From: the human T2T-CHM13v2.0 reference genome, Homo sapiens | Assembly: GCF_009914755.1 (NCBI RefSeq) | Contig: NC_060931.1 | Direction: 5' to 3' (one strand) | Length of the DNA: 64,000 nt | Part shown: positions 1 to 40,177 of the stretch, one piece after another | How positions within the stretch are numbered: position 1 is the first letter of the stretch | Layout of the letters: every line of letters begins with the position of its first letter | Notes under the pieces: generated by a model | What the model saw: the letters and a program-made list of their open reading frames with translations, nothing else | What the model was told of the DNA's origin: nothing | Databases searched by the model: none | Made by a program: the position numbers and the translations under genes

Positions 1-191
1 CAAAGAGGTTGTTGGGAGGCAGCAGTCGGGCCTGGAGACGCAGCCGGGAGGAAGAGCTGGGCCCGGAGAGGACGCCGGGAGGCCGCATGTGGGTCTGGAG
101 AGGCCGACTTGAGGAGGCCCGGCCTCTGCCTCCCTCAGGGCGGCCTCTGCAGGCCCAGCTGTTCCTCCTGGCTGCATCTCTCGGCCCAGCT

Positions 192-470
192 CCTGCCTCC
201 CAGCAGGCAAGCTCTTTTGGCTCAGCTCCCTCCAGCGTTTGTAGACCCCGAAGTTTCTGCAGCCAAGCTCTTCAGGCCCACATCCTGCCTCCCGGTGGCC
301 TGTACAGTCCCAGCTCTGGCAGCAGAAGAGCGTCAGCAGGCCCCGCTGTTGCCTCCCAGGGGCGTCTCCAGGCCCAGCTCTCGCCCCACCACGGCCTCCC
401 GCGGCCAAGTCCCTGCCTGCTCCCGGCAGCCTGCGTACGGCCCTGCTCCTCCCTCACGGTGGCCTGTTGA
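192..470 (+). repeat. Left arm of the imperfect inverted repeat flanking the minisatellite (teucer-like)
   Basis: Ends '...cctccctcacggtggcctgttga' at 470, the reverse complement of 'tcaacaggccaccgtgagggagg' starting at 796. The + ORF ending at 470 and the - ORF ending at 796 both finish SSLTVAC. Confidence 0.95.
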
Positions 471-765
471 GGCAGGGGCTCACGCTGACCTCTCTCGGCG
501 TGGGAGGGGCCGGTGTGAGGCAAGGGCTCACGCTGACCTCTCTCGGCGTGGGAGGGGCCGGTGTGAGGCAAGGGGCTCACGCCGACCTCTCTCGGCGTGA
601 GAGGGGCCGGTGTGAGGCAAGGGGCTCACGCTGACCTCTCTCTGCGTGGGAGGGGCCGGTGTGAGCCAAGGGGTCAGTGTGGGAGGGGCCGGTGTGAGGC
701 AAGGGGCTCACGCCGACCTCTCTCAGCGTGGGAGGAGCCGGTGTGAGGCAGGGACTCACGCCTCT
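468..765 (+). repeat. 48/49-bp G-rich minisatellite in every unit (TGAGGCAAGGGGCTCACGCTGACCTCTCTCGGCGTGGGAGGGGCCGGTG); resembles the primate 'ajax' 49-bp satellite
   Basis: Monomers start at 468, 516, 564, 613, 662, 695 and 744 (48, 48, 49, 49, 33 truncated, 49, then a partial). The tandem structure is read directly. The ajax name rests on my recall of the TELO_Comp description (49-bp array bounded by duplicated teucer sequence) and is unverified. Confidence 0.9.
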
Positions 766-795
766 GCGCAGGGTGCCAGCGGCATGAGTTGGGCA

Positions 796-1066
796 TCAAC
801 AGGCCACCGTGAGGGAGGAACTGGGCCGCACGCGGGCTGCCGGGAGGCCGCCGTGGGGGCGAGAGCTGGGCCTGGAGAGGCCCCTGGGAGGCAAGAGCGG
901 GACCTGCAGAGGCTGTTCTACCGCCAGAGCTGGGCCTGTACAGGCCACCGAGAGGCAGTAGGCGGGCGCGAAGAGCTTGGCTCGAGAAAGTTCGGGGCCT
1001 ACAAAGGCGGTTTTGAGCTGGGCAGGAGTTGAGCCCAAAGAGCTTGCTTACTTGCTGGGAGGCAGG
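796..1066 (-). repeat. Right arm of the imperfect inverted repeat (teucer-like), reverse complement of 192-470
   Basis: Manual alignment of the core (238-400 against the reverse complement of ~842-1005) gives about 22 differences in ~163 nt (~85% identity). The left arm carries an extra ~24 nt at ~401-424. TGTACA is mirrored at 301 and 937. Confidence 0.95.
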
Positions 1067-1290
1067 GCCGGGAGACGCTGACTTCAGGACGACTTGGGCC
1101 TGCAGAGGTCGCCAGGAGGCCCAAGCTGGGCGCGGAGGAGCCCACCGACCGGAGACCGTTTGGGGCCTGGAGACGCCATCGGAGGGCAGGAGCTGATCCT
1201 GGAGAGGCCACCGTGAGGCCTGACCTGGGCCTGGGGAGCTTGGCTTGAGGAAGCTGTGGGCCGACCAAGGCCGCCAGGAGATGGGCAGGC

Positions 1291-1525
1291 GCTGAGTCCA
1301 AAGAGGTTGTTGGGAGGCAGCAGTCGGGCCTGGAGACGCAGCCGGGAGGAAGAGCTGGGCCCGGAGAGGACGCCGGGAGGCCGCATGTGGGTCTGGAGAG
1401 GCCGACTTGAGGAGGCCCGGCCTCTGCCTCCCTCAGGGCGGCCTCTGCAGGCCCAGCTGTTCCTCCTGGCTGCATCTCTCGGCCCAGCTCCTGCCTCCCA
1501 GCAGGCAAGCTCTTTTGGCTCAGCT
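1291..1525. repeat. Second, shorter imperfect inverted repeat across each unit-unit junction (~1291-1374 pairs with ~1437-1525)
   Basis: The reverse complement of 1291-1374 (ggcgtcctctccgggcccagctcttcctcccggctgcgtctccaggcccgactgctgcctcccaacaacctctttggactcagc) aligns to 1437 onward (ggcggcctctgcaggcccagctgttcctcctggctgcatctctcggcccagctcctgcctcccagcaggcaagctcttttggctcagc). Confidence 0.85.
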
Positions 1526-4500
1526 CCCTCCAGCGTTTGTAGACCCCGAAGTTTCTGCAGCCAAGCTCTTCAGGCCCACATCCTGCCTCCCGGTGGCCTG
1601 TACAGTCCCAGCTCTGGCAGCAGAAGAGCGTCAGCAGGCCCCGCTGTTGCCTCCCAGGGGCGTCTCCAGGCCCAGCTCTCGCCCCACCACGGCCTCCCGC
1701 GGCCAAGTCCCTGCCTGCTCCCGGCAGCCTGCGTACGGCCCTGCTCCTCCCTCACGGTGGCCTGTTGAGGCAGGGGCTCACGCTGACCTCTCTCGGCGTG
1801 GGAGGGGCCGGTGTGAGGCAAGGGCTCACGCTGACCTCTCTCGGCGTGGGAGGGGCCGGTGTGAGGCAAGGGGCTCACGCCGACCTCTCTCGGCGTGAGA
1901 GGGGCCGGTGTGAGGCAAGGGTCTCACGCTGACCTCTCTCTGCGTGGGAGGGGCCGGTGTGAGCCAAGGGGTCAGTGTGGGAGGGGCCGGTGTGAGGCAA
2001 GGGGCTCACGCCGACCTCTCTCAGCGTGGGAGGAGCCAGTGTGAGGCAGGGACTCACGCCTCTGCGCAGGGTGCCAGCGGCATGAGTTGGGCATCAACAG
2101 GCCACCGTGAGGGAGGAACTGGGCCGCACGCGGGCTGCCGGGAGGCCGCCGTGGGGGCGAGAGCTGGGCCTGGAGAGGCCCCTGGGAGGCAAGAGCGGGA
2201 CCTGCAGAGGCTGTTCTACCGCCAGAGCTGGGCCTGTACAGGCCACCGAGAGGCAGTAGGCGGGCGCGAAGAGCTTGGCTCGAGAAAGTTCGGGGCCTAC
2301 AAAGGCGGTTTTGAGCTGGGCAGGAGTTGAGCCCAAAGAGCTTGCTTACTTGCTGGGAGGCAGGGCCGGGAGACGCTGACTTCAGGACGACTTGGGCCTG
2401 CAGAGGTCGCCAGGAGGCCCAAGCTGGGCGCGGAGGAGCCCACCGACCGGAGACCGTTTGGGGCCTGGAGACGCCATCGGAGGGCAGGAGCTGATCCTGG
2501 AGAGGCCACCGTGAGGCCTGACCTGGGCCTGGGGAGCTTGGCTTGAGGAAGCTGTGGGCCGACCAAGGCCGCCAGGAGATGGGCAGGCGCTGAGTCCAAA
2601 GAGGTTGTTGGGAGGCAGCAGTCGGGCCTGGAGACGCAGCCGGGAGGAAGAGCTGGGCCCGGAGAGGACGCCGGGAGGCCGCATGTGGGTCTGGAGAGGC
2701 CGACTTGAGGAGGCCCGGCCTCTGCCTCCCTCAGGGCGGCCTCTGCAGGCCCAGCTGTTCCTCCTGGCTGCATCTCTCGGCCCAGCTCCTGCCTCCCAGC
2801 AGGCAAGCTCTTTTGGCTCAGCTCCCTCCAGCGTTTGTAGACCCCGAAGTTTCTGCAGCCAAGCTCTTCAGGCCCACATCCTGCCTCCCGGTGGCCTGTA
2901 CAGTCCCAGCTCTGGCAGCAGAAGAGCGTCAGCAGGCCCCGCTGTTGCCTCCCAGGGGCGTCTCCAGGCCCAGCTCTCGCCCCACCACGGCCTCCCGCGG
3001 CCAAGTCCCTGCCTGCTCCCGGCAGCCTGCGTACGGCCCTGCTCCTCCCTCACGGTGGCCTGTTGAGGCAGGGGCTCACGCTGACCTCTCTCGGCGTGGG
3101 AGGGGCCGGTGTGAGGCAAGGGCTCACGCTGACCTCTCTCGGCGTGGGAGGGGCCGGTGTGAGGCAAGGGGCTCACGCCGACCTCTCTCGGCGTGAGAGG
3201 GGCCGGTGTGAGGCAAGGGGCTCACGCTGACCTCTCTCTGCGTGGGAGGGGCCGGTGTGAGCCAAGGGGTCAGTGTGGGAGGGGCCGGTGTGAGGCAAGG
3301 GGCTCACGCCGACCTCTCTCAGCGTGGGAGGAGCCGGTGTGAGGCAGGGACTCACGCCTCTGCGCAGGGTGCCAGCGGCATGAGTTGGGCATCAACAGGC
3401 CACCGTGAGGGAGGAACTGGGCCGCACGCGGGCTGCCGGGAGGCCGCCGTGGGGGCGAGAGCTGGGCCTGGAGAGGCCCCTGGGAGGCAAGAGCGGGACC
3501 TGCAGAGGCTGTTCTACCGCCAGAGCTGGGCCTGTACAGGCCACCGAGAGGCAGTAGGCGGGCGCGAAGAGCTTGGCTCGAGAAAGTTCGGGGCCTACAA
3601 AGGCGGTTTTGAGCTGGGCAGGAGTTGAGCCCAAAGAGCTTGCTTACTTGCTGGGAGGCAGGGCCGGGAGACGCTGACTTCAGGACGACTTGGGCCTGCA
3701 GAGGTCGCCAGGAGGCCCAAGCTGGGCGCGGAGGAGCCCACCGACCGGAGACCGTTTGGGGCCTGGAGACGCCATCGGAGGGCAGGAGCTGATCCTGGAG
3801 AGGCCACCGTGAGGCCTGACCTGGGCCTGGGGAGCTTGGCTTGAGGAAGCTGTGGGCCGACCAAGGCCGCCAGGAGATGGGCAGGCGCTGAGTCCAAAGA
3901 GGTTGTTGGGAGGCAGCAGTCGGGCCTGGAGACGCAGCCGGGAGGAAGAGCTGGGCCCGGAGAGGACGCCGGGAGGCCGCATGTGGGTCTGGAGAGGCCG
4001 ACTTGAGGAGGCCCGGCCTCTGCCTCCCTCAGGGCGGCCTCTGCAGGCCCAGCTGTTCCTCCTGGCTGCATCTCTCGGCCCAGCTCCTGCCTCCCAGCAG
4101 GCAAGCTCTTTTGGCTCAGCTCCCTCCAGCGTTTGTAGACCCCGAAGTTTCTGCAGCCAAGCTCTTCAGGCCCACATCCTGCCTCCCGGTGGCCTGTACA
4201 GTCCCAGCTCTGGCAGCAGAAGAGCGTCAGCAGGCCCCGCTGTTGCCTCCCAGGGGCGTCTCCAGGCCCAGCTCTCGCCCCACCACGGCCTCCCGCGGCC
4301 AAGTCCCTGCCTGCTCCCGGCAGCCTGCGTACGGCCCTGCTCCTCCCTCACGGTGGCCTGTTGAGGCAGGGGCTCACGCTGACCTCTCTCGGCGTGGGAG
4401 GGGCCGGTGTGAGGCAAGGGCTCACGCTGACCTCTCTCGGCGTGGGAGGGGCCGGTGTGAGGCAAGGGGCTCACGCCGACCTCTCTCGGCGTGAGAGGGG

Positions 4501-5309
4501 CCGGTGTGAGGCAAGGGGCTCACGCTGACCTCTCTCTGCGTGGGAGGGGCCGGTGTGAGCCAAGGGGTCAGTGTGGGAGGGGCCGGTGTGAGGCAAGGGG
4601 CTCACGCCGACCTCTCTCAGCGTGGGAGGAGCCGGTGTGAGGCAGGGACTCACGCCTCTGCGCAGGGTGCCAGCGGCATGAGTTGGGCATCAACAGGCCA
4701 CCGTGAGGGAGGAACTGGGCCGCACGCGGGCTGCCGGGAGGCCGCCGTGGGGGCGAGAGCTGGGCCTGGAGAGGCCCCTGGGAGGCAAGAGCGGGACCTG
4801 CAGAGGCTGTTCTACCGCCAGAGCTGGGCCTGTACAGGCCACCGAGAGGCAGTAGGCGGGCGCGAAGAGCTTGGCTCGAGAAAGTTCGGGGCCTACAAAG
4901 GCGGTTTTGAGCTGGGCAGGAGTTGAGCCCAAAGAGCTTGCTTACTTGCTGGGAGGCAGGGCCGGGAGACGCTGACTTCAGGACGACTTGGGCCTGCAGA
5001 GGTTGCCAGGAGGCCCAAGCTGGGCGCGGAGGAGCCCACCGACCGGAGACCGTTTGGGGCCTGGAGACGCCATCGGAGGGCAGGAGCTGATCCTGGAGAG
5101 GCCACCGTGAGGCCTGACCTGGGCCTGGGGAGCTTGGCTTGAGGAAGCTGTGGGCCGACCAAGGCCGCCAGGAGATGGGCAGGCGCTGAGTCCAAAGAGG
5201 TTGTTGGGAGGCAGCAGTCGGGCCTGGAGACGCAGCCGGGAGGAAGAGCTGGGCCCGGAGAGGACGCCGGGAGGCCGCATGTGGGTCTGGAGAGGCCGAC
5301 TTGAGGAGG

Positions 5310-6461
5310 CCCGGCCTCTGCCTCCCTCAGGGCGGCCTCTGCAGGCCCAGCTGTTCCTCCTGGCTGCATCTCTCGGCCCAGCTCCTGCCTCCCAGCAGGC
5401 AAGCTCTTTTGGCTCAGCTCCCTCCAGCGTTTGTAGACCCCGAAGTTTCTGCAGCCAAGCTCTTCAGGCCCACATCCTGCCTCCCGGTGGCCTGTACAGT
5501 CCCAGCTCTGGCAGCAGAAGAGCGTCAGCAGGCCCCGCTGTTGCCTCCCAGGGGCGTCTCCAGGCCCAGCTCTCGCCCCACCACGGCCTCCCGCGGCCAA
5601 GTCCCTGCCTGCTCCCGGCAGCCTGCGTACGGCCCTGCTCCTCCCTCACGGTGGCCTGTTGAGGCAGGGGCTCACGCTGACCTCTCTCGGCGTGGGAGGG
5701 GCCGGTGTGAGCCAAGGGGTCAGTGTGGGAGGGGCCGGTGTGAGGCAAGGGGCTCACGCCGACCTCTCTCAGCGTGGGAGGAGCCAGTGTGAGGCAGGGA
5801 CTCACGCCTCTGCGCAGGGTGCCAGCGGCATGAGTTGGGCATCAACAGGCCACCGTGAGGGAGGAACTGGGCCGCACGCGGGCTGCCGGGAGGCCGCCGT
5901 GGGGGCGAGAGCTGGGCCTGGAGAGGCCCCTGGGAGGCAAGAGCGGGACCTGCAGAGGCTGTTCTACCGCCAGAGCTGGGCCTGTACAGGCCACCGAGAG
6001 GCAGTAGGCGGGCGCGAAGAGCTTGGCTCGAGAAAGTTCGGGGCCTACAAAGGCGGTTTTGAGCTGGGCAGGAGTTGAGCCCAAAGAGCTTGCTTACTTG
6101 CTGGGAGGCAGGGCCGGGAGACGCTGACTTCAGGACGACTTGGGCCTGCAGAGGTCGCCAGGAGGCCCAAGCTGGGCGCGGAGGAGCCCACCGACCGGAG
6201 ACCGTTTGGGGCCTGGAGACGCCATCGGAGGGCAGGAGCTGATCCTGGAGAGGCCACCGTGAGGCCTGACCTGGGCCTGGGGAGCTTGGCTTGAGGAAGC
6301 TGTGGGCCGACCAAGGCCGCCAGGAGATGGGCAGGCGCTGAGTCCAAAGAGGTTGTTGGGAGGCAGCAGTCGGGCCTGGAGACGCAGCCGGGAGGAAGAG
6401 CTGGGCCCGGAGAGGACGCCGGGAGGCCGCATGTGGGTCTGGAGAGGCCGACTTGAGGAGG
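5310..6461. repeat. Short unit 5 (1152 bp), lacking three minisatellite monomers (48+49+49 = 146 bp)
   Basis: Anchor spacing 5301 to 6453 is 1152. At ~5660-5740 monomer 1 runs straight into the 33-bp truncated monomer. Confidence 0.95.
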
Positions 6462-9400
6462 CCCGGCCTCTGCCTCCCTCAGGGCGGCCTCTGCAGGCCC
6501 AGCTGTTCCTCCTGGCTGCATCTCTCGGCCCAGCTCCTGCCTCCCAGCAGGCAAGCTCTTTTGGCTCAGCTCCCTCCAGCGTTTGTAGACCCCGAAGTTT
6601 CTGCAGCCAAGCTCTTCAGGCCCACATCCTGCCTCCCGGTGGCCTGTACAGTCCCAGCTCTGGCAGCAGAAGAGCGTCAGCAGGCCCCGCTGTTGCCTCC
6701 CAGGGGCGTCTCCAGGCCCAGCTCTCGCCCCACCACGGCCTCCCGCGGCCAAGTCCCTGCCTGCTCCCGGCAGCCTGCGTACGGCCCTGCTCCTCCCTCA
6801 CGGTGGCCTGTTGAGGCAGGGGCTCACGCTGACCTCTCTCGGCGTGGGAGGGGCCGGTGTGAGGCAAGGGCTCACGCTGACCTCTCTCGGCGTGGGAGGG
6901 GCCGGTGTGAGGCAAGGGGCTCACGCCGACCTCTCTCGGCGTGAGAGGGGCCGGTGTGAGGCAAGGGGCTCACGCTGACCTCTCTCTGCGTGGGAGGGGC
7001 CGGTGTGAGCCAAGGGGTCAGTGTGGGAGGGGCCGGTGTGAGGCAAGGGGCTCACGCCGACCTCTCTCAGCGTGGGAGGAGCCAGTGTGAGGCAGGGACT
7101 CACGCCTCTGCGCAGGGTGCCAGCGGCATGAGTTGGGCATCAACAGGCCACCGTGAGGGAGGAACTGGGCCGCACGCGGGCTGCCGGGAGGCCGCCGTGG
7201 GGGCGAGAGCTGGGCCTGGAGAGGCCCCTGGGAGGCAAGAGCGGGACCTGCAGAGGCTGTTCTACCGCCAGAGCTGGGCCTGTACAGGCCACCGAGAGGC
7301 AGTAGGCGGGCGCGAAGAGCTTGGCTCGAGAAAGTTCGGGGCCTACAAAGGCGGTTTTGAGCTGGGCAGGAGTTGAGCCCAAAGAGCTTGCTTACTTGCT
7401 GGGAGGCAGGGCCGGGAGACGCTGACTTCAGGACGACTTGGGCCTGCAGAGGTCGCCAGGAGGCCCAAGCTGGGCGCGGAGGAGCCCACCGACCGGAGAC
7501 CGTTTGGGGCCTGGAGACGCCATCGGAGGGCAGGAGCTGATCCTGGAGAGGCCACCGTGAGGCCTGACCTGGGCCTGGGGAGCTTGGCTTGAGGAAGCTG
7601 TGGGCCGACCAAGGCCGCCAGGAGATGGGCAGGCGCTGAGTCCAAAGAGGTTGTTGGGAGGCAGCAGTCGGGCCTGGAGACGCAGCCGGGAGGAAGAGCT
7701 GGGCCCGGAGAGGACGCCGGGAGGCCGCATGTGGGTCTGGAGAGGCCGACTTGAGGAGGCCCGGCCTCTGCCTCCCTCAGGGCGGCCTCTGCAGGCCCAG
7801 CTGTTCCTCCTGGCTGCATCTCTCGGCCCAGCTCCTGCCTCCCAGCAGGCAAGCTCTTTTGGCTCAGCTCCCTCCAGCGTTTGTAGACCCCGAAGTTTCT
7901 GCAGCCAAGCTCTTCAGGCCCACATCCTGCCTCCCGGTGGCCTGTACAGTCCCAGCTCTGGCAGCAGAAGAGCGTCAGCAGGCCCCGCTGTTGCCTCCCA
8001 GGGGCGTCTCCAGGCCCAGCTCTCGCCCCACCACGGCCTCCCGCGGCCAAGTCCCTGCCTGCTCCCGGCAGCCTGCGTACGGCCCTGCTCCTCCCTCACG
8101 GTGGCCTGTTGAGGCAGGGGCTCACGCTGACCTCTCTCGGCGTGGGAGGGGCCGGTGTGAGGCAAGGGCTCACGCTGACCTCTCTCGGCGTGGGAGGGGC
8201 CGGTGTGAGGCAAGGGGCTCACGCCGACCTCTCTCGGCGTGAGAGGGGCCGGTGTGAGGCAAGGGGCTCACGCTGACCTCTCTCTGCGTGGGAGGGGCCG
8301 GTGTGAGCCAAGGGGTCAGTGTGGGAGGGGCCGGTGTGAGGCAAGGGGCTCACGCCGACCTCTCTCAGCGTGGGAGGAGCCAGTGTGAGGCAGGGACTCA
8401 CGCCTCTGCGCAGGGTGCCAGCGGCATGAGTTGGGCATCAACAGGCCACCGTGAGGGAGGAACTGGGCCGCACGCGGGCTGCCGGGAGGCCGCCGTGGGG
8501 GCGAGAGCTGGGCCTGGAGAGGCCCCTGGGAGGCAAGAGCGGGACCTGCAGAGGCTGTTCTACCGCCAGAGCTGGGCCTGTACAGGCCACCGAGAGGCAG
8601 TAGGCGGGCGCGAAGAGCTTGGCTCGAGAAAGTTCGGGGCCTACAAAGGCGGTTTTGAGCTGGGCAGGAGTTGAGCCCAAAGAGCTTGCTTACTTGCTGG
8701 GAGGCAGGGCCGGGAGACGCTGACTTCAGGACGACTTGGGCCTGCAGAGGTCGCCAGGAGGCCCAAGCTGGGCGCGGAGGAGCCCACCGACCGGAGACCG
8801 TTTGGGGCCTGGAGACGCCATCGGAGGGCAGGAGCTGATCCTGGAGAGGCCACCGTGAGGCCTGACCTGGGCCTGGGGAGCTTGGCTTGAGGAAGCTGTG
8901 GGCCGACCAAGGCCGCCAGGAGATGGGCAGGCGCTGAGTCCAAAGAGGTTGTTGGGAGGCAGCAGTCGGGCCTGGAGACGCAGCCGGGAGGAAGAGCTGG
9001 GCCCGGAGAGGACGCCGGGAGGCCGCATGTGGGTCTGGAGAGGCCGACTTGAGGAGGCCCGGCCTCTGCCTCCCTCAGGGCGGCCTCTGCAGGCCCAGCT
9101 GTTCCTCCTGGCTGCATCTCTCGGCCCAGCTCCTGCCTCCCAGCAGGCAAGCTCTTTTGGCTCAGCTCCCTCCAGCGTTTGTAGACCCCGAAGTTTCTGC
9201 AGCCAAGCTCTTCAGGCCCACATCCTGCCTCCCGGTGGCCTGTACAGTCCCAGCTCTGGCAGCAGAAGAGCGTCAGCAGGCCCCGCTGTTGCCTCCCAGG
9301 GGCGTCTCCAGGCCCAGCTCTCGCCCCACCACGGCCTCCCGCGGCCAAGTCCCTGCCTGCTCCCGGCAGCCTGCGTACGGCCCTGCTCCTCCCTCACGGT

Positions 9401-12400
9401 GGCCTGTTGAGGCAGGGGCTCACGCTGACCTCTCTCGGCGTGGGAGGGGCCGGTGTGAGGCAAGGGCTCACGCTGACCTCTCTCGGCGTGGGAGGGGCCG
9501 GTGTGAGGCAAGGGGCTCACGCCGACCTCTCTCGGCGTGAGAGGGGCCGGTGTGAGGCAAGGGGCTCACGCTGACCTCTCTCTGCGTGGGAGGGGCCGGT
9601 GTGAGCCAAGGGGTCAGTGTGGGAGGGGCCGGTGTGAGGCAAGGGGCTCACGCCGACCTCTCTCAGCGTGGGAGGAGCCGGTGTGAGGCAGGGACTCACG
9701 CCTCTGCGCAGGGTGCCAGCGGCATGAGTTGGGCATCAACAGGCCACCGTGAGGGAGGAACTGGGCCGCACGCGGGCTGCCGGGAGGCCGCCGTGGGGGC
9801 GAGAGCTGGGCCTGGAGAGGCCCCTGGGAGGCAAGAGCGGGACCTGCAGAGGCTGTTCTACCGCCAGAGCTGGGCCTGTACAGGCCACCGAGAGGCAGTA
9901 GGCGGGCGCGAAGAGCTTGGCTCGAGAAAGTTCGGGGCCTACAAAGGCGGTTTTGAGCTGGGCAGGAGTTGAGCCCAAAGAGCTTGCTTACTTGCTGGGA
10001 GGCAGGGCCGGGAGACGCTGACTTCAGGACGACTTGGGCCTGCAGAGGTCGCCAGGAGGCCCAAGCTGGGCGCGGAGGAGCCCACCGACCGGAGACCGTT
10101 TGGGGCCTGGAGACGCCATCGGAGGGCAGGAGCTGATCCTGGAGAGGCCACCGTGAGGCCTGACCTGGGCCTGGGGAGCTTGGCTTGAGGAAGCTGTGGG
10201 CCGACCAAGGCCGCCAGGAGATGGGCAGGCGCTGAGTCCAAAGAGGTTGTTGGGAGGCAGCAGTCGGGCCTGGAGACGCAGCCGGGAGGAAGAGCTGGGC
10301 CCGGAGAGGACGCCGGGAGGCCGCATGTGGGTCTGGAGAGGCCGACTTGAGGAGGCCCGGCCTCTGCCTCCCTCAGGGCGGCCTCTGCAGGCCCAGCTGT
10401 TCCTCCTGGCTGCATCTCTCGGCCCAGCTCCTGCCTCCCAGCAGGCAAGCTCTTTTGGCTCAGCTCCCTCCAGCGTTTGTAGACCCCGAAGTTTCTGCAG
10501 CCAAGCTCTTCAGGCCCACATCCTGCCTCCCGGTGGCCTGTACAGTCCCAGCTCTGGCAGCAGAAGAGCGTCAGCAGGCCCCGCTGTTGCCTCCCAGGGG
10601 CGTCTCCAGGCCCAGCTCTCGCCCCACCACGGCCTCCCGCGGCCAAGTCCCTGCCTGCTCCCGGCAGCCTGCGTACGGCCCTGCTCCTCCCTCACGGTGG
10701 CCTGTTGAGGCAGGGGCTCACGCTGACCTCTCTCGGCGTGGGAGGGGCCGGTGTGAGGCAAGGGCTCACGCTGACCTCTCTCGGCGTGGGAGGGGCCGGT
10801 GTGAGGCAAGGGGCTCACGCCGACCTCTCTCGGCGTGAGAGGGGCCGGTGTGAGGCAAGGGGCTCACGCTGACCTCTCTCTGCGTGGGAGGGGCCGGTGT
10901 GAGCCAAGGGGTCAGTGTGGGAGGGGCCGGTGTGAGGCAAGGGGCTCACGCCGACCTCTCTCAGCGTGGGAGGAGCCGGTGTGAGGCAGGGACTCACGCC
11001 TCTGCGCAGGGTGCCAGCGGCATGAGTTGGGCATCAACAGGCCACCGTGAGGGAGGAACTCGGCCGCACGCGGGCTGCCGGGAGGCCGCCGTGGGGGCGA
11101 GAGCTGGGCCTGGAGAGGCCCCTGGGAGGCAAGAGCGGGACCTGCAGAGGCTGTTCTACCGCCAGAGCTGGGCCTGTACAGGCCACCGAGAGGCAGTAGG
11201 CGGGCGCGAAGAGCTTGGCTCGAGAAAGTTCGGGGCCTACAAAGGCGGTTTTGAGCTGGGCAGGAGTTGAGCCCAAAGAGCTTGCTTACTTGCTGGGAGG
11301 CAGGGCCGGGAGACGCTGACTTCAGGACGACTTGGGCCTGCAGAGGTCGCCAGGAGGCCCAAGCTGGGCGCGGAGGAGCCCACCGACCGGAGACCGTTTG
11401 GGGCCTGGAGACGCCATCGGAGGGCAGGAGCTGATCCTGGAGAGGCCACCGTGAGGCCTGACCTGGGCCTGGGGAGCTTGGCTTGAGGAAGCTGTGGGCC
11501 GACCAAGGCCGCCAGGAGATGGGCAGGCGCTGAGTCCAAAGAGGTTGTTGGGAGGCAGCAGTCGGGCCTGGAGACGCAGCCGGGAGGAAGAGCTGGGCCC
11601 GGAGAGGACGCCGGGAGGCCGCATGTGGGTCTGGAGAGGCCGACTTGAGGAGGCCCGGCCTCTGCCTCCCTCAGGGCGGCCTCTGCAGGCCCAGCTGTTC
11701 CTCCTGGCTGCATCTCTCGGCCCAGCTCCTGCCTCCCAGCAGGCAAGCTCTTTTGGCTCAGCTCCCTCCAGCGTTTGTAGACCCCGAAGTTTCTGCAGCC
11801 AAGCTCTTCAGGCCCACATCCTGCCTCCCGGTGGCCTGTACAGTCCCAGCTCTGGCAGCAGAAGAGCGTCAGCAGGCCCCGCTGTTGCCTCCCAGGGGCG
11901 TCTCCAGGCCCAGCTCTCGCCCCACCACGGCCTCCCGCGGCCAAGTCCCTGCCTGCTCCCGGCAGCCTGCGTACGGCCCTGCTCCTCCCTCACGGTGGCC
12001 TGTTGAGGCAGGGGCTCACGCTGACCTCTCTCGGCGTGGGAGGGGCCGGTGTGAGGCAAGGGCTCACGCTGACCTCTCTCGGCGTGGGAGGGGCCGGTGT
12101 GAGGCAAGGGGCTCACGCCGACCTCTCTCGGCGTGAGAGGGGCCGGTGTGAGGCAAGGGGCTCACGCTGACCTCTCTCTGCGTGGGAGGGGCCGGTGTGA
12201 GCCAAGGGGTCAGTGTGGGAGGGGCCGGTGTGAGGCAAGGGGCTCACGCCGACCTATCTCAGCGTGGGAGGAGCCGGTGTGAGGCAGGGACTCACGCCTC
12301 TGCGCAGGGTGCCAGCGGCATGAGTTGGGCATCAACAGGCCACCGTGAGGGAGGAACTGGGCCGCACGCGGGCTGCCGGGAGGCCGCCGTGGGGGCGAGA

Positions 12401-15400
12401 GCTGGGCCTGGAGAGGCCCCTGGGAGGCAAGAGCGGGACCTGCAGAGGCTGTTCTACCGCCAGAGCTGGGCCTGTACAGGCCACCGAGAGGCAGTAGGCG
12501 GGCGCGAAGAGCTTGGCTCGAGAAAGTTCGGGGCCTACAAAGGCGGTTTTGAGCTGGGCAGGAGTTGAGCCCAAAGAGCTTGCTTACTTGCTGGGAGGCA
12601 GGGCCGGGAGACGCTGACTTCAGGACGACTTGGGCCTGCAGAGGTCGCCAGGAGGCCCAAGCTGGGCGCGGAGGAGCCCACCGACCGGAGACCGTTTGGG
12701 GCCTGGAGACGCCATCGGAGGGCAGGAGCTGATCCTGGAGAGGCCACCGTGAGGCCTGACCTGGGCCTGGGGAGCTTGGCTTGAGGAAGCTGTGGGCCGA
12801 CCAAGGCCGCCAGGAGATGGGCAGGCGCTGAGTCCAAAGAGGTTGTTGGGAGGCAGCAGTCGGGCCTGGAGACGCAGCCGGGAGGAAGAGCTGGGCCCGG
12901 AGAGGACGCCGGGAGGCCGCATGTGGGTCTGGAGAGGCCGACTTGAGGAGGCCCGGCCTCTGCCTCCCTCAGGGCGGCCTCTGCAGGCCCAGCTGTTCCT
13001 CCTGGCTGCATCTCTCGGCCCAGCTCCTGCCTCCCAGCAGGCAAGCTCTTTTGGCTCAGCTCCCTCCAGCGTTTGTAGACCCCGAAGTTTCTGCAGCCAA
13101 GCTCTTCAGGCCCACATCCTGCCTCCCGGTGGCCTGTACAGTCCCAGCTCTGGCAGCAGAAGAGCGTCAGCAGGCCCCGCTGTTGCCTCCCAGGGGCGTC
13201 TCCAGGCCCAGCTCTCGCCCCACCACGGCCTCCCGCGGCCAAGTCCCTGCCTGCTCCCGGCAGCCTGCGTACGGCCCTGCTCCTCCCTCACGGTGGCCTG
13301 TTGAGGCAGGGGCTCACGCTGACCTCTCTCGGCGTGGGAGGGGCCGGTGTGAGGCAAGGGCTCACGCTGACCTCTCTCGGCGTGGGAGGGGCCGGTGTGA
13401 GGCAAGGGGCTCACGCCGACCTCTCTCGGCGTGAGAGGGGCCGGTGTGAGGCAAGGGGCTCACGCTGACCTCTCTCTGCGTGGGAGGGGCCGGTGTGAGC
13501 CAAGGGGTCAGTGTGGGAGGGGCCGGTGTGAGGCAAGGGGCTCACGCCGACCTCTCTCAGCGTGGGAGGAGCCAGTGTGAGGCAGGGACTCACGCCTCTG
13601 CGCAGGGTGCCAGCGGCATGAGTTGGGCATCAACAGGCCACCGTGAGGGAGGAACTGGGCCGCACGCGGGCTGCCGGGAGGCCGCCGTGGGGGCGAGAGC
13701 TGGGCCTGGAGAGGCCCCTGGGAGGCAAGAGCGGGACCTGCAGAGGCTGTTCTACCGCCAGAGCTGGGCCTGTACAGGCCACCGAGAGGCAGTAGGCGGG
13801 CGCGAAGAGCTTGGCTCGAGAAAGTTCGGGGCCTACAAAGGCGGTTTTGAGCTGGGCAGGAGTTGAGCCCAAAGAGCTTGCTTACTTGCTGGGAGGCAGG
13901 GCCGGGAGACGCTGACTTCAGGACGACTTGGGCCTGCAGAGGTCGCCAGGAGGCCCAAGCTGGGCGCGGAGGAGCCCACCGACCGGAGACCGTTTGGGGC
14001 CTGGAGACGCCATCGGAGGGCAGGAGCTGATCCTGGAGAGGCCACCGTGAGGCCTGACCTGGGCCTGGGGAGCTTGGCTTGAGGAAGCTGTGGGCCGACC
14101 AAGGCCGCCAGGAGATGGGCAGGCGCTGAGTCCAAAGAGGTTGTTGGGAGGCAGCAGTCGGGCCTGGAGACGCAGCCGGGAGGAAGAGCTGGGCCCGGAG
14201 AGGACGCCGGGAGGCCGCATGTGGGTCTGGAGAGGCCGACTTGAGGAGGCCCGGCCTCTGCCTCCCTCAGGGCGGCCTCTGCAGGCCCAGCTGTTCCTCC
14301 TGGCTGCATCTCTCGGCCCAGCTCCTGCCTCCCAGCAGGCAAGCTCTTTTGGCTCAGCTCCCTCCAGCGTTTGTAGACCCCGAAGTTTCTGCAGCCAAGC
14401 TCTTCAGGCCCACATCCTGCCTCCCGGTGGCCTGTACAGTCCCAGCTCTGGCAGCAGAAGAGCGTCAGCAGGCCCCGCTGTTGCCTCCCAGGGGCGTCTC
14501 CAGGCCCAGCTCTCACCCCACCACGGCCTCCCGCGGCCAAGTCCCTGCCTGCTCCCGGCAGCCTGCGTACGGCCCTGCTCCTCCCTCACGGTGGCCTGTT
14601 GAGGCAGGGGCTCACGCTGACCTCTCTCGGCGTGGGAGGGGCCGGTGTGAGGCAAGGGCTCACGCTGACCTCTCTCGGCGTGGGAGGGGCCGGTGTGAGG
14701 CAAGGGGCTCACGCCGACCTCTCTCGGCGTGAGAGGGGCCGGTGTGAGGCAAGGGGCTCACGCTGACCTCTCTCTGCGTGGGAGGGGCCGGTGTGAGCCA
14801 AGGGGTCAGTGTGGGAGGGGCCGGTGTGAGGCAAGGGGCTCACGCCGACCTCTCTCAGCGTGGGAGGAGCCAGTGTGAGGCAGGGACTCACGCCTCTGCG
14901 CAGGGTGCCAGCGGCATGAGTTGGGCATCAACAGGCCACCGTGAGGGAGGAACTCGGCCGCACGCGGGCTGCCGGGAGGCCGCCGTGGGGGCGAGAGCTG
15001 GGCCTGGAGAGGCCCCTGGGAGGCAAGAGCGGGACCTGCAGAGGCTGTTCTACCGCCAGAGCTGGGCCTGTACAGGCCACCGAGAGGCAGTAGGCGGGCG
15101 CGAAGAGCTTGGCTCGAGAAAGTTCGGGGCCTACAAAGGCGGTTTTGAGCTGGGCAGGAGTTGAGCCCAAAGAGCTTGCTTACTTGCTGGGAGGCAGGGC
15201 CGGGAGACGCTGACTTCAGGACGACTTGGGCCTGCAGAGGTCGCCAGGAGGCCCAAGCTGGGCGCGGAGGAGCCCACCGACCGGAGACCGTTTGGGGCCT
15301 GGAGACGCCATCGGAGGGCAGGAGCTGATCCTGGAGAGGCCACCGTGAGGCCTGACCTGGGCCTGGGGAGCTTGGCTTGAGGAAGCTGTGGGCCGACCAA

Positions 15401-18400
15401 GGCCGCCAGGAGATGGGCAGGCGCTGAGTCCAAAGAGGTTGTTGGGAGGCAGCAGTCGGGCCTGGAGACGCAGCCGGGAGGAAGAGCTGGGCCCGGAGAG
15501 GACGCCGGGAGGCCGCATGTGGGTCTGGAGAGGCCGACTTGAGGAGGCCCGGCCTCTGCCTCCCTCAGGGCGGCCTCTGCAGGCCCAGCTGTTCCTCCTG
15601 GCTGCATCTCTCGGCCCAGCTCCTGCCTCCCAGCAGGCAAGCTCTTTTGGCTCAGCTCCCTCCAGCGTTTGTAGACCCCGAAGTTTCTGCAGCCAAGCTC
15701 TTCAGGCCCACATCCTGCCTCCCGGTGGCCTGTACAGTCCCAGCTCTGGCAGCAGAAGAGCGTCAGCAGGCCCCGCTGTTGCCTCCCAGGGGCGTCTCCA
15801 GGCCCAGCTCTCGCCCCACCACGGCCTCCCGCGGCCAAGTCCCTGCCTGCTCCCGGCAGCCTGCGTACGGCCCTGCTCCTCCCTCACGGTGGCCTGTTGA
15901 GGCAGGGGCTCACGCTGACCTCTCTCGGCGTGGGAGGGGCCGGTGTGAGGCAAGGGCTCACGCTGACCTCTCTCGGCGTGGGAGGGGCCGGTGTGAGGCA
16001 AGGGGCTCACGCCGACCTCTCTCGGCGTGAGAGGGGCCGGTGTGAGGCAAGGGGCTCACGCTGACCTCTCTCTGCGTGGGAGGGGCCGGTGTGAGCCAAG
16101 GGGTCAGTGTGGGAGGGGCCGGTGTGAGGCAAGGGGCTCACGCCGACCTCTCTCAGCGTGGGAGGAGCCGGTGTGAGGCAGGGACTCACGCCTCTGCGCA
16201 GGGTGCCAGCGGCATGAGTTGGGCATCAACAGGCCACCGTGAGGGAGGAACTGGGCCGCACGCGGGCTGCCGGGAGGCCGCCGTGGGGGCGAGAGCTGGG
16301 CCTGGAGAGGCCCCTGGGAGGCAAGAGCGGGACCTGCAGAGGCTGTTCTACCGCCAGAGCTGGGCCTGTACAGGCCACCGAGAGGCAGTAGGCGGGCGCG
16401 AAGAGCTTGGCTCGAGAAAGTTCGGGGCCTACAAAGGCGGTTTTGAGCTGGGCAGGAGTTGAGCCCAAAGAGCTTGCTTACTTGCTGGGAGGCAGGGCCG
16501 GGAGACGCTGACTTCAGGACGACTTGGGCCTGCAGAGGTCGCCAGGAGGCCCAAGCTGGGCGCGGAGGAGCCCACCGACCGGAGACCGTTTGGGGCCTGG
16601 AGACGCCATCGGAGGGCAGGAGCTGATCCTGGAGAGGCCACCGTGAGGCCTGACCTGGGCCTGGGGAGCTTGGCTTGAGGAAGCTGTGGGCCGACCAAGG
16701 CCGCCAGGAGATGGGCAGGCGCTGAGTCCAAAGAGGTTGTTGGGAGGCAGCAGTCGGGCCTGGAGACGCAGCCGGGAGGAAGAGCTGGGCCCGGAGAGGA
16801 CGCCGGGAGGCCGCATGTGGGTCTGGAGAGGCCGACTTGAGGAGGCCCGGCCTCTGCCTCCCTCAGGGCGGCCTCTGCAGGCCCAGCTGTTCCTCCTGGC
16901 TGCATCTCTCGGCCCAGCTCCTGCCTCCCAGCAGGCAAGCTCTTTTGGCTCAGCTCCCTCCAGCGTTTGTAGACCCCGAAGTTTCTGCAGCCAAGCTCTT
17001 CAGGCCCACATCCTGCCTCCCGGTGGCCTGTACAGTCCCAGCTCTGGCAGCAGAAGAGCGTCAGCAGGCCCCGCTGTTGCCTCCCAGGGGCGTCTCCAGG
17101 CCCAGCTCTCGCCCCACCACGGCCTCCCGCGGCCAAGTCCCTGCCTGCTCCCGGCAGCCTGCGTACGGCCCTGCTCCTCCCTCACGGTGGCCTGTTGAGG
17201 CAGGGGCTCACGCTGACCTCTCTCGGCGTGGGAGGGGCCGGTGTGAGGCAAGGGCTCACGCTGACCTCTCTCGGCGTGGGAGGGGCCGGTGTGAGGCAAG
17301 GGGCTCACGCCGACCTCTCTCGGCGTGAGAGGGGCCGGTGTGAGGCAAGGGGCTCACGCTGACCTCTCTCTGCGTGGGAGGGGCCGGTGTGAGCCAAGGG
17401 GTCAGTGTGGGAGGGGCCGGTGTGAGGCAAGGGGCTCACGCCGACCTCTCTCAGCGTGGGAGGAGCCGGTGTGAGGCAGGGACTCACGCCTCTGCGCAGG
17501 GTGCCAGCGGCATGAGTTGGGCATCAACAGGCCACCGTGAGGGAGGAACTGGGCCGCACGCGGGCTGCCGGGAGGCCGCCGTGGGGGCGAGAGCTGGGCC
17601 TGGAGAGGCCCCTGGGAGGCAAGAGCGGGACCTGCAGAGGCTGTTCTACCGCCAGAGCTGGGCCTGTACAGGCCACCGAGAGGCAGTAGGCGGGCGCGAA
17701 GAGCTTGGCTCGAGAAAGTTCGGGGCCTACAAAGGCGGTTTTGAGCTGGGCAGGAGTTGAGCCCAAAGAGCTTGCTTACTTGCTGGGAGGCAGGGCCGGG
17801 AGACGCTGACTTCAGGACGACTTGGGCCTGCAGAGGTCGCCAGGAGGCCCAAGCTGGGCGCGGAGGAGCCCACCGACCGGAGACCGTTTGGGGCCTGGAG
17901 ACGCCATCGGAGGGCAGGAGCTGATCCTGGAGAGGCCACCGTGAGGCCTGACCTGGGCCTGGGGAGCTTGGCTTGAGGAAGCTGTGGGCCGACCAAGGCC
18001 GCCAGGAGATGGGCAGGCGCTGAGTCCAAAGAGGTTGTTGGGAGGCAGCAGTCGGGCCTGGAGACGCAGCCGGGAGGAAGAGCTGGGCCCGGAGAGGACG
18101 CCGGGAGGCCGCATGTGGGTCTGGAGAGGCCGACTTGAGGAGGCCCGGCCTCTGCCTCCCTCAGGGCGGCCTCTGCAGGCCCAGCTGTTCCTCCTGGCTG
18201 CATCTCTCGGCCCAGCTCCTGCCTCCCAGCAGGCAAGCTCTTTTGGCTCAGCTCCCTCCAGCGTTTGTAGACCCCGAAGTTTCTGCAGCCAAGCTCTTCA
18301 GGCCCACATCCTGCCTCCCGGTGGCCTGTACAGTCCCAGCTCTGGCAGCAGAAGAGCGTCAGCAGGCCCCGCTGTTGCCTCCCAGGGGCGTCTCCAGGCC

Positions 18401-21400
18401 CAGCTCTCGCCCCACCACGGCCTCCCGCGGCCAAGTCCCTGCCTGCTCCCGGCAGCCTGCGTACGGCCCTGCTCCTCCCTCACGGTGGCCTGTTGAGGCA
18501 GGGGCTCACGCTGACCTCTCTCGGCGTGGGAGGGGCCGGTGTGAGGCAAGGGCTCACGCTGACCTCTCTCGGCGTGGGAGGGGCCGGTGTGAGGCAAGGG
18601 GCTCACGCCGACCTCTCTCGGCGTGAGAGGGGCCGGTGTGAGGCAAGGGGCTCACGCTGACCTCTCTCTGCGTGGGAGGGGCCGGTGTGAGCCAAGGGGT
18701 CAGTGTGGGAGGGGCCGGTGTGAGGCAAGGGGCTCACGCCGACCTCTCTCAGCGTGGGAGGAGCCAGTGTGAGGCAGGGACTCACGCCTCTGCGCAGGGT
18801 GCCAGCGGCATGAGTTGGGCATCAACAGGCCACCGTGAGGGAGGAACTGGGCCGCACGCGGGCTGCCGGGAGGCCGCCGTGGGGGCGAGAGCTGGGCCTG
18901 GAGAGGCCCCTGGGAGGCAAGAGCGGGACCTGCAGAGGCTGTTCTACCGCCAGAGCTGGGCCTGTACAGGCCACCGAGAGGCAGTAGGCGGGCGCGAAGA
19001 GCTTGGCTCGAGAAAGTTCGGGGCCTACAAAGGCGGTTTTGAGCTGGGCAGGAGTTGAGCCCAAAGAGCTTGCTTACTTGCTGGGAGGCAGGGCCGGGAG
19101 ACGCTGACTTCAGGACGACTTGGGCCTGCAGAGGTCGCCAGGAGGCCCAAGCTGGGCGCGGAGGAGCCCACCGACCGGAGACCGTTTGGGGCCTGGAGAC
19201 GCCATCGGAGGGCAGGAGCTGATCCTGGAGAGGCCACCGTGAGGCCTGACCTGGGCCTGGGGAGCTTGGCTTGAGGAAGCTGTGGGCCGACCAAGGCCGC
19301 CAGGAGATGGGCAGGCGCTGAGTCCAAAGAGGTTGTTGGGAGGCAGCAGTCGGGCCTGGAGACGCAGCCGGGAGGAAGAGCTGGGCCCGGAGAGGACGCC
19401 GGGAGGCCGCATGTGGGTCTGGAGAGGCCGACTTGAGGAGGCCCGGCCTCTGCCTCCCTCAGGGCGGCCTCTGCAGGCCCAGCTGTTCCTCCTGGCTGCA
19501 TCTCTCGGCCCAGCTCCTGCCTCCCAGCAGGCAAGCTCTTTTGGCTCAGCTCCCTCCAGCGTTTGTAGACCCCGAAGTTTCTGCAGCCAAGCTCTTCAGG
19601 CCCACATCCTGCCTCCCGGTGGCCTGTACAGTCCCAGCTCTGGCAGCAGAAGAGCGTCAGCAGGCCCCGCTGTTGCCTCCCAGGGGCGTCTCCAGGCCCA
19701 GCTCTCGCCCCACCACGGCCTCCCGCGGCCAAGTCCCTGCCTGCTCCCGGCAGCCTGCGTACGGCCCTGCTCCTCCCTCACGGTGGCCTGTTGAGGCAGG
19801 GGCTCACGCTGACCTCTCTCGGCGTGGGAGGGGCCGGTGTGAGGCAAGGGCTCACGCTGACCTCTCTCGGCGTGGGAGGGGCCGGTGTGAGGCAAGGGGC
19901 TCACGCCGACCTCTCTCGGCGTGAGAGGGGCCGGTGTGAGGCAAGGGGCTCACGCTGACCTCTCTCTGCGTGGGAGGGGCCGGTGTGAGCCAAGGGGTCA
20001 GTGTGGGAGGGGCCGGTGTGAGGCAAGGGGCTCACGCCGACCTCTCTCAGCGTGGGAGGAGCCGGTGTGAGGCAGGGACTCACGCCTCTGCGCAGGGTGC
20101 CAGCGGCATGAGTTGGGCATCAACAGGCCACCGTGAGGGAGGAACTGGGCCGCACGCGGGCTGCCGGGAGGCCGCCGTGGGGGCGAGAGCTGGGCCTGGA
20201 GAGGCCCCTGGGAGGCAAGAGCGGGACCTGCAGAGGCTGTTCTACCGCCAGAGCTGGGCCTGTACAGGCCACCGAGAGGCAGTAGGCGGGCGCGAAGAGC
20301 TTGGCTCGAGAAAGTTCGGGGCCTACAAAGGCGGTTTTGAGCTGGGCAGGAGTTGAGCCCAAAGAGCTTGCTTACTTGCTGGGAGGCAGGGCCGGGAGAC
20401 GCTGACTTCAGGACGACTTGGGCCTGCAGAGGTCGCCAGGAGGCCCAAGCTGGGCGCGGAGGAGCCCACCGACCGGAGACCGTTTGGGGCCTGGAGACGC
20501 CATCGGAGGGCAGGAGCTGATCCTGGAGAGGCCACCGTGAGGCCTGACCTGGGCCTGGGGAGCTTGGCTTGAGGAAGCTGTGGGCCGACCAAGGCCGCCA
20601 GGAGATGGGCAGGCGCTGAGTCCAAAGAGGTTGTTGGGAGGCAGCAGTCGGGCCTGGAGACGCAGCCGGGAGGAAGAGCTGGGCCCGGAGAGGACGCCGG
20701 GAGGCCGCATGTGGGTCTGGAGAGGCCGACTTGAGGAGGCCCGGCCTCTGCCTCCCTCAGGGCGGCCTCTGCAGGCCCAGCTGTTCCTCCTGGCTGCATC
20801 TCTCGGCCCAGCTCCTGCCTCCCAGCAGGCAAGCTCTTTTGGCTCAGCTCCCTCCAGCGTTTGTAGACCCCGAAGTTTCTGCAGCCAAGCTCTTCAGGCC
20901 CACATCCTGCCTCCCGGTGGCCTGTACAGTCCCAGCTCTGGCAGCAGAAGAGCGTCAGCAGGCCCCGCTGTTGCCTCCCAGGGGCGTCTCCAGGCCCAGC
21001 TCTCGCCCCACCACGGCCTCCCGCGGCCAAGTCCCTGCCTGCTCCCGGCAGCCTGCGTACGGCCCTGCTCCTCCCTCACGGTGGCCTGTTGAGGCAGGGG
21101 CTCACGCTGACCTCTCTCGGCGTGGGAGGGGCCGGTGTGAGGCAAGGGCTCACGCTGACCTCTCTCGGCGTGGGAGGGGCCGGTGTGAGGCAAGGGGCTC
21201 ACGCCGACCTCTCTCGGCGTGAGAGGGGCCGGTGTGAGGCAAGGGGCTCACGCTGACCTCTCTCTGCGTGGGAGGGGCCGGTGTGAGCCAAGGGGTCAGT
21301 GTGGGAGGGGCCGGTGTGAGGCAAGGGGCTCACGCCGACCTCTCTCAGCGTGGGAGGAGCCAGTGTGAGGCAGGGACTCACGCCTCTGCGCAGGGTGCCA

Positions 21401-39600: not shown

Positions 39601-40177
39601 GCCGGGAGGCCGCCGTGGGGGCGAGAGCTGGGCCTGGAGAGGCCCCTGGGAGGCAAGAGCGGGACCTGCAGAGGCTGTTCTACCGCCAGAGCTGGGCCTG
39701 TACAGGCCACCGAGAGGCAGTAGGCGGGCGCGAAGAGCTTGGCTCGAGAAAGTTCGGGGCCTACAAAGGCGGTTTTGAGCTGGGCAGGAGTTGAGCCCAA
39801 AGAGCTTGCTTACTTGCTGGGAGGCAGGGCCGGGAGACGCTGACTTCAGGACGACTTGGGCCTGCAGAGGTCGCCAGGAGGCCCAAGCTGGGCGCGGAGG
39901 AGCCCACCGACCGGAGACCGTTTGGGGCCTGGAGACGCCATCGGAGGGCAGGAGCTGATCCTGGAGAGGCCACCGTGAGGCCTGACCTGGGCCTGGGGAG
40001 CTTGGCTTGAGGAAGCTGTGGGCCGACCAAGGCCGCCAGGAGATGGGCAGGCGCTGAGTCCAAAGAGGTTGTTGGGAGGCAGCAGTCGGGCCTGGAGACG
40101 CAGCCGGGAGGAAGAGCTGGGCCCGGAGAGGACGCCGGGAGGCTGCATGTGGGTCTGGAGAGGCCGACTTGAGGAGG

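What the first reader, a model, noticed from the sequence alone, without database searches (positions are those of the whole stretch)
192..1066. Every unit is a large imperfect palindrome: ~275-bp stem with a ~325-nt minisatellite loop
Seen: 192-470 and 796-1066 are reverse complements (~85% in the core), and the left arm ends where the minisatellite begins. In tandem, each right arm can also pair with the next unit's left arm (796-1066 with 1490-1768). Inference: a read-through transcript could fold into dozens of long dsRNA stems (possible ADAR, Dicer or MDA5/PKR substrates), and single-stranded DNA could fold back during replication. The ~15% arm divergence, against <1% between units, shows the inversion is much older than the amplification.
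Basis: partly seen in the sequence, partly recalled or inferred. Interest (0 to 1): 0.7.

Follow-up and report, generated by a model that had tools for sequence, protein, structure and literature searches.

The report
Mirror-image arms in human ajax-teucer repeat
Each of the 49 copies of a known 1.3-kb human repeat in this window has two mirror-image arms around a small satellite, likely the leftover of an old DNA-copying error in ape ancestors; it is predicted to fold into long RNA hairpins if transcribed, but no function is shown.

Summary
All 49 units have arms of 279 and 271 nt that are reverse complements (89.5% of ungapped columns, 77.9% with gaps) around a 179-375 nt loop. By place, period and layout this is the published chr7 ajax-teucer super-repeat of TELO_Comp (Hoyt preprint). 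The text I could read calls teucer 'duplicated', never inverted. (1) The arms are a decayed 32-bp minisatellite; the left arm is one inverted block between forward blocks. (2) The loop is structured: each 49-bp ajax monomer is a 17-pair hairpin whose halves weakly resemble teucer on opposite strands, so ajax may be the amplified fold-back tip. (3) Great-ape gene models cross the same inversion junction (13 of 28), and 0 of 6 monkey models do. The stem folds strongly in silico, but unbroken helices reach only 24-26 bp, and nothing suggests selection on pairing. Best reading: a neutral template-switch relic, later amplified. A dsRNA role is untested.

The parts
1..63510 (.). Tandem array of ~1298-bp units (ajax-teucer super-repeat); it begins left of the window; 49 complete palindromes inside
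   Evidence: identity and the hub's coordinates
119..473 (-).
   Evidence: monomer scan gives only reverse-strand peaks here; alignment
474..792 (+). ajax 49-bp minisatellite loop: five full monomers with hairpin cores at 479-519, 527-567, 576-616, 625-665 and 707-747, plus one shortened monomer and a degenerate last one
479..519 (+). ajax monomer hairpin: 18-nt arms, 5-nt loop, 17 pairs (4 of them G-U) and one A-C mismatch; candidate ancestral fold-back tip
   Evidence: -30.2 kcal/mol as RNA, z -3.66, 1 of 500 shuffles as low; pair types read from the printed structure
793..1119 (+).
1120..1416 (+). Further forward teucer-type monomers up to the outer junction; weak pairing with the next left arm
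115..118 (.). Outer inversion junction, forward to reverse (same as 1413-1416); possible 3-nt microhomology (inferred); shared with orangutan, gorilla, chimpanzee and bonobo gene models
63511..64000 (+). Right flank beyond the last unit: forward 32-bp monomers continue with no inversion
295..961 (+). Predicted RefSeq intron (GT-AG, weak sites, no pyrimidine tract) whose two ends lie in the paired arms about 13 nt out of register
   Evidence: hub table; (295 pairs with 948, 961 faces 282)

Best explanation
Each unit is an inverted block of an old 32-bp minisatellite (teucer) facing its forward partner across the 49-bp ajax satellite, likely a neutral relic of a replication template switch in an ape ancestor that was probably multiplied later by unequal exchange. 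Steps: (a) shown: forward-inverted-ajax-forward layout, and a specific match between the two arms; (b) shown at the level of gene models: the layout exists in great apes; (c) inferred: a nascent strand switched to the opposite strand and back, helped by the short inverted repeat inside each monomer (e.g. 869-882); (d) inferred, moderate support: the tight inner fold-back (18-nt arms, 5-nt loop) was then repeated head to tail to become ajax; (e) inferred: unequal exchange between the direct forward blocks on both sides, plus homogenisation, produced the near-identical array. Hairpin RNA would be a by-product wherever both arms are transcribed, likely held down by methylation.
For: Monomer orientation flips at ~118 and across ajax; period 32 in both arms and in the flank. 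The arm match far exceeds generic monomer similarity. Ajax halves pair with each other and score above shuffles against a teucer profile built only from monomers outside the unit: + strand 4/300 and 8/300, - strand 8/300 and 5/300. Of 36 named proteins (28 great ape, 2 human, 6 Old World monkey), 13 ape models read gap-free or nearly so across the outer junction, 3 Pan models read right arm, then inverted left arm, then forward block on one strand, and 11 hominid models carry the uninverted right-flank join, so both direct copies exist. Translated arm-versus-arm identity is 61-70%, like human-monkey identity in the neighbouring block (65-74%) and below human-orangutan (82-88% in junction-spanning models). 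No sign of selection: wobble-compatible mismatches are 2 on + and 9 on - (p 0.065; extended arms 5 and 10, p 0.30). 8 of 9 array variants in the arms break a pair. Variant density is 9/668 in arms and 9/630 elsewhere. Hoyt et al. report ajax hypermethylated and concerted evolution of pericentromeric arrays.
Against: The outer junction is not a tight fold-back: the forward block runs ~300 nt past the point mirrored by the left arm. The native left end of the array is outside the window. A gapped best-hit test supports teucer ancestry for one ajax half (12/500) but not the other (205/500). The ape and monkey evidence is predicted proteins, which may be spliced, frameshifted or from other paralogues; only 6 are from monkeys and none from gibbons. 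The commonest arm variant (138, 7 of 48 units) restores a pair. Tests of selection have little power with 27-42 mismatches and 9 variants. RefSeq predicts transcripts on both strands.
Confidence: 0.62

Rival explanations
1. One reading: the array or its paralogues is transcribed through both arms and is a biologically relevant dsRNA source (ADAR-edited, diced, or sensed by MDA5/PKR).
For: MFE -765.8 (+) and -718.9 (-) kcal/mol, z -38.5 and -23.3 against 25 shuffles each; 233 and 256 arm-arm pairs with probability >0.9; about 80 paired adenosines per unit. Arm length is close to an Alu (~280 bp), and short loops mark immunogenic inverted Alus (PMC12695637 passages). No AATAAA or ATTAAA on either strand in 64 kb. 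Predicted RefSeq transcripts lie on both strands (hub table). Ajax hairpins are much more stable on + than on -.
Against: Longest unbroken helices are 24-26 bp. No selection signal. No Rfam family at its gathering score. Ajax is reported hypermethylated. The + strand RefSeq models splice out most of the within-unit stem. Six lncRNA names that I recall as TELO_Comp paralogues had no hit in 5 supplementary files of one dsRNA study, and a paper search with such names found nothing; both are weak negatives.
Confidence: 0.13
2. The arms were already diverged paralogous blocks of the minisatellite region, and an ordinary inversion or an inverted insertion brought one next to the other; no fold-back, and arm divergence overstates the age of the inversion.
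For: The region has a complex history of direct duplication: two monkey models carry the neighbouring block twice in the same orientation. An orangutan model holds an all-forward arm-like stretch that resembles the left arm, including the piece missing from the right arm. The outer junction is offset by ~300 nt.
Against: The arms are symmetric about ajax to the base, with their best run (24 bp) at the loop, and weak complementarity continues into ajax. Ajax itself is a small fold-back.
Confidence: 0.17
3. The symmetry matters at the DNA level: it sets protein-binding motifs (CTCF-like) in alternating orientation, or forms hairpins that drive the array's instability.
For: A preprint reports teucer rich in CTCF motifs, with a modest DiMeLo-seq signal. 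In my scan all 7 hits followed block orientation: reverse in the left arm, forward elsewhere.
Against: With two recalled consensus patterns at 2 mismatches the counts were 4 and 3 per unit, against 1.6 +/- 1.4 (max 8) and 0.8 +/- 0.9 (max 3) in 100 shuffles: not clearly above chance. Arm lengths are invariant in 49 of 49 units, so no palindrome-centred deletion reaches the arms. As DNA the ajax hairpin is weak (z -1.84 and -0.59).
Confidence: 0.08

Closest known systems
ajax-teucer super-repeat of TELO_Comp, chr7:56,525,533 (Hoyt et al., bioRxiv 10.1101/2021.07.12.451456)
   Same: [quoted passage not shown]
   Different: The text read has no 'palindrom', 'hairpin', 'stem-loop' or 'dsRNA', and its two uses of 'inverted' concern other things. 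The inverted block, the 32-bp substructure and the ajax hairpin are not described there. Figures, supplements and the Science version were not seen.
Inverted triplication by template switching (ODIRA; DUP-TRP/INV-DUP), PMC10766183
   Same: A central inverted copy between direct copies; junctions at short interrupted inverted repeats (passages).
   Different: Here the segment is only ~350 bp, lies inside a minisatellite, is millions of years old, has one offset junction, and the inner junction appears tandemly amplified.
Inverted Alu pairs as ADAR1/MDA5 substrates (PMC12695637)
   Same: Arms of about 280-340 nt, imperfect pairing, short loop.
   Different: Not transposon-derived, GC-rich (67-68%), repeated in tandem so that alternative and nested pairings exist; transcription and editing not shown.
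FLJ44672 / DUF4705 (PF15788) predicted proteins
   Same: Translations of the C-rich strand of teucer match the family above its cut-off; relatives carry this name in apes and monkeys.
   Different: The family matches on both strands of the unit because of the inversion, which points to translated repeat rather than a real protein domain (inference).

Membership tests
TELO_Comp ajax-teucer super-repeat | Variable array of a 49-bp satellite | tested here: met
   period 49; loop 179-375 nt
TELO_Comp ajax-teucer super-repeat | Satellite bounded on both sides by a duplicated sequence | tested here: met
   the nearest duplicate is inverted
TELO_Comp ajax-teucer super-repeat | Tandem teucer-ajax units at the chr7 56.5-Mb locus | tested here: met
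   49 units; the published start lies ~18.5 kb left of the window by the hub's coordinates (assembly versions differ)
TELO_Comp ajax-teucer super-repeat | Match to the published ajax and teucer consensus; TELO-A subunit downstream | not testable with these tools
   no repeat library is held; no own genome
Template-switch inverted triplication (ODIRA type) | Inverted copy between two direct copies | tested here: met
   the left direct copy is seen inside the array and in ape gene models, not at the native left end
Template-switch inverted triplication (ODIRA type) | Both junctions at closely spaced short inverted repeats | tested here: inconclusive
   inner junction: 18-nt arms with a 5-nt loop; outer junction offset by ~300 nt
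Template-switch inverted triplication (ODIRA type) | Three copies of equal age, made in one event | not testable with these tools
   needs DNA of ape and monkey loci
Inverted-repeat dsRNA substrate of ADAR1/MDA5 (IR-Alu-like) | Arms of a few hundred nt with a short loop that fold into a long stem | tested here: met
   (prediction only; helices broken every 26 bp or less)
Inverted-repeat dsRNA substrate of ADAR1/MDA5 (IR-Alu-like) | Both arms in one transcript, with A-to-I clusters or sensor binding | not testable with these tools
   no read data; supplement search by recalled names negative
Known structured RNA or miRNA family (Rfam) | Score at or above the gathering threshold | tested here: not met
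   14 matches in 100-1800, all below gathering; the best are plant miRNA models hitting the junction hairpin
Foldback transposon / MITE | Terminal inverted repeats distinct from the flanking DNA | tested here: not met
   the arms are made of the same 32-bp monomers as the flank
Foldback transposon / MITE | Target-site duplication | not tested
   not examined

The most novel reading that the evidence does not exclude
The ajax satellite was born from the hairpin tip of an ape-specific fold-back in the teucer minisatellite, and the resulting hairpin-in-hairpin unit, spread to the TELO_Comp loci of 10 chromosomes and amplified about 60-fold here, is a methylation-silenced, non-Alu reservoir of long dsRNA that ADAR1 edits or MDA5 senses when it is derepressed.
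Probability: 0.1. Interest if true: 0.72.

Novelty: new member of a known kind. Interest (0 to 1): 0.35.

Why it matters
The array is already catalogued, so the gain is anatomical. It would correct 'duplicated teucer' to 'forward-inverted-forward'. It offers a traceable origin for a human satellite (an amplified fold-back tip, about even odds). It warns that FLJ44672/DUF4705 models and RefSeq introns here may be repeat artefacts. It also names a multi-mapping, non-Alu inverted repeat that standard editing and dsRNA pipelines would likely discard and that is easy to test by mapping to one unit. Without RNA evidence it is a modest structural note.

Tried and rejected
Chance or generic monomer similarity: rejected. 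Hairpin-specific repair signature: arm mismatches are rich in transversions (16 of 27; p 0.007 against an assumed 2:1 transition ratio), but so are direct paralogues (9 of 17) and monomers against their consensus (47 of 85), so it is not hairpin-specific. Outer junction as a new human breakpoint: rejected, shared with apes. Known RNA family: none. CTCF-like motifs: not clearly above chance with recalled patterns. Canonical G-quadruplex motif with loops up to 7 nt: none on either strand. A protein search with an ORF crossing left arm, ajax and right arm gave 18 hits, none named, and was not analysed. 20 of 56 hits lacked a name and were left out of all counts. Own genome and earlier findings were not available. 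The Science version of Hoyt et al. is not held. Paper searches gave nothing on this element; one search listed 3 expression papers that name FLJ44672 once (listing only). Warburton 2008 passages on chr7 do not list this array.

Full report
1. Observation. The window is a tandem array of a 1298-bp unit that ends near 63,510. BLAST extends them to 133-473 and 793-1119. The local score is 302, against a maximum of 41 in 500 dinucleotide shuffles and 200 in 500 shuffles of 32-nt blocks; forward windows mostly or wholly beyond the right arm score 71-118. All 49 units have arms of 279 and 271 nt with 227-231 matches, and all length variation lies in the loop. Units differ by 0.14% on average (48 units).

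2. Identity. The hub places the window at chr7:56.544-56.608 Mb. Hoyt et al. [quoted passage not shown] They report tandem teucer-ajax arrays at chr7:56525533 that evolve as one super-repeat, hypermethylation of ajax, and concerted evolution of pericentromeric arrays. Place, period and layout match; I could not compare consensus sequences. Only two genomic papers in the library name teucer. The preprint's main text has no 'palindrom', 'hairpin', 'stem-loop' or 'dsRNA'. The second paper (10.64898/2026.07.18.739380; passages) reports CTCF motifs in teucer and does not mention its orientation. Figures, supplements and the Science version were not available and may show the inversion.

3. Anatomy. 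Both arms, the rest of the unit and the flank beyond the array have their strongest or second-strongest periodicity at 32. A monomer profile finds forward monomers from 788 to ~1416 and in the flank, and only reverse monomers from 128 to ~478. So the unit is forward block, inverted block (119-473), ajax, forward block, with two orientation switches. The outer switch, at 115-118, gives the weaker palindrome 1162-1642 (67.7%). Each monomer carries a 5-bp inverted repeat around 4 nt (for example 869-882; read from the sequence), a ready microhomology between the strands.

4. The loop. The first ajax monomer folds as RNA into a hairpin with 18-nt arms and a 5-nt loop: -30.2 kcal/mol, z -3.66, 1 of 500 shuffles as low. 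The - strand gives z -1.84, and as DNA z is -1.84 and -0.59. The five non-Watson-Crick positions are all transitions (four G-U, one A-C; read from the structure), as expected from decay of a once perfect inverted repeat. Against a profile made from 14 monomers outside the unit, ajax scores above shuffles on both strands (4/300 and 8/300 on +, 8/300 and 5/300 on -). A gapped best-hit test supports one half (12/500) and not the other (205/500). I therefore put the origin of ajax from the fold-back tip at about even odds.

5. Age. A search with the 250-aa minus-strand ORF returned 56 proteins among the 7992 candidates scored. 36 carry names (28 great ape, 2 human, 6 Old World monkey; none from New World monkeys or gibbons), and only these were analysed. 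Thirteen ape models read from the inverted arm across the outer junction into the forward block; for orangutan P0005, 21 of 25 and 23 of 26 residues match on the two sides. One of them has a 12-residue duplication near the junction. Three Pan models read right arm, inverted left arm and forward block on one strand. Eleven hominid models show the uninverted join to the right flank. None of 6 monkey models shows the inverted join; upstream of it they match the left arm at 3-8 residues of about 22, against 17-18 for the four junction-type ape models scored this way. Translated, the two arms are 61-70% identical, like human-monkey identity in the neighbouring block (65-74%) and below human-orangutan (82-88% in junction-spanning models). 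K2P distance between arms is 0.11-0.15. This brackets the inversion between the monkey-ape and orangutan splits (roughly 30 to 15 million years; dates recalled). These are predicted proteins, so the bracket is provisional. The last right flank is identical to interior units over 793-1010 and then differs by 17 substitutions and 2 gap columns. That fits either a hybrid unit made by unequal exchange between two direct copies or an edge left behind by homogenisation; either way, <1% does not by itself date the array.

6. RNA. The within-unit fold has 271 (+) or 280 (-) arm-arm pairs, at -765.8 and -718.9 kcal/mol. The cross-unit fold has 231 and 242. Two units fold into a nested cross-unit rod on + and a mixed form on -. 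The longest unbroken helices are 24-26 bp, below the ~30 bp usually quoted for PKR (recalled). z-scores are -38.5 and -23.3 against 25 shuffles each. The geometry resembles inverted Alu pairs, for which short loops go with immunogenicity (PMC12695637; passages). Evidence of function is absent. Wobble-compatible mismatches do not favour + (2 versus 9). 8 of 9 array variants in the arms break a pair, while the commonest (7 units) restores one. The arms are not depleted of variants. No Rfam family passes its threshold. Six recalled names of paralogous lncRNAs are absent from 5 supplementary files of that dsRNA study (I did not check which tables those files hold). The RefSeq models are predictions over near-identical repeats. 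The recurring + strand intron 295-961 has weak splice sites and both ends inside the stem; it could be stem-assisted splicing, a reverse-transcriptase skip or a misaligned paralogue.

7. Mechanism and comparison. The layout matches an inverted triplication made by switching to the opposite strand and back at short inverted repeats (PMC10766183; passages), at miniature scale. The inner junction fits well; the outer one is offset by ~300 nt. Best explanation (0.62): a neutral template-switch relic in a minisatellite, then tandem growth of the tip into ajax, then unequal exchange and homogenisation. Rivals: inversion of already diverged paralogous blocks (0.17), a biologically relevant dsRNA source (0.13), a DNA-level role (0.08).

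8. Verdict. The feature is real and lies in a known array. Its palindromic, hairpin-in-hairpin anatomy was not found in the searchable literature. Function is unshown. Interest 0.35.

Noticed in passing
window 4896-5645 (-) and 1296-1895 (+): Pfam DUF4705 matches above its cut-off on both strands of the unit (48.8 and 50.3 bits), always on the C-rich reading of teucer; the family and the FLJ44672-like models are likely translated repeat. No paper in the library names DUF4705.
   Followed up: partly
window 295-961 and the same place in many units: The predicted + strand intron has both ends in the paired arms ~13 nt out of register; the exon 962-1592 is in turn roughly the cross-unit hairpin.
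   Followed up: partly
window 30296-30426 and 31594-31724 (-): These predicted 131-nt introns lie wholly inside ajax and equal 49 + 82 nt, the two periods found by TRF; likely copy-number differences aligned as introns.
   Followed up: no
window 63108-63497: The last right flank differs from interior units at 17 substitutions, in patches, after 218 identical bases.
   Followed up: partly
window 31126-40179: The variant at unit position 138, which restores a pair, is carried by 7 of 8 consecutive units (25-29, 31, 32): a local spread by unequal exchange or conversion.
   Followed up: partly
arms 133-473 / 793-1119 and flank 63512-63965: Differences in this element are rich in transversions, many G<->C, in arms, direct paralogues and monomers alike. 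Where arms differ at a CpG, the right arm keeps it more often (12 versus 3). Unexplained.
   Followed up: partly
window 5437-6078 (+): In the short unit (146 nt of ajax missing) one 213-codon stop-free frame runs through left arm, ajax and right arm; its 18 database hits were all unnamed.
   Followed up: partly
whole window: No AATAAA or ATTAAA on either strand in 64 kb.
   Followed up: no
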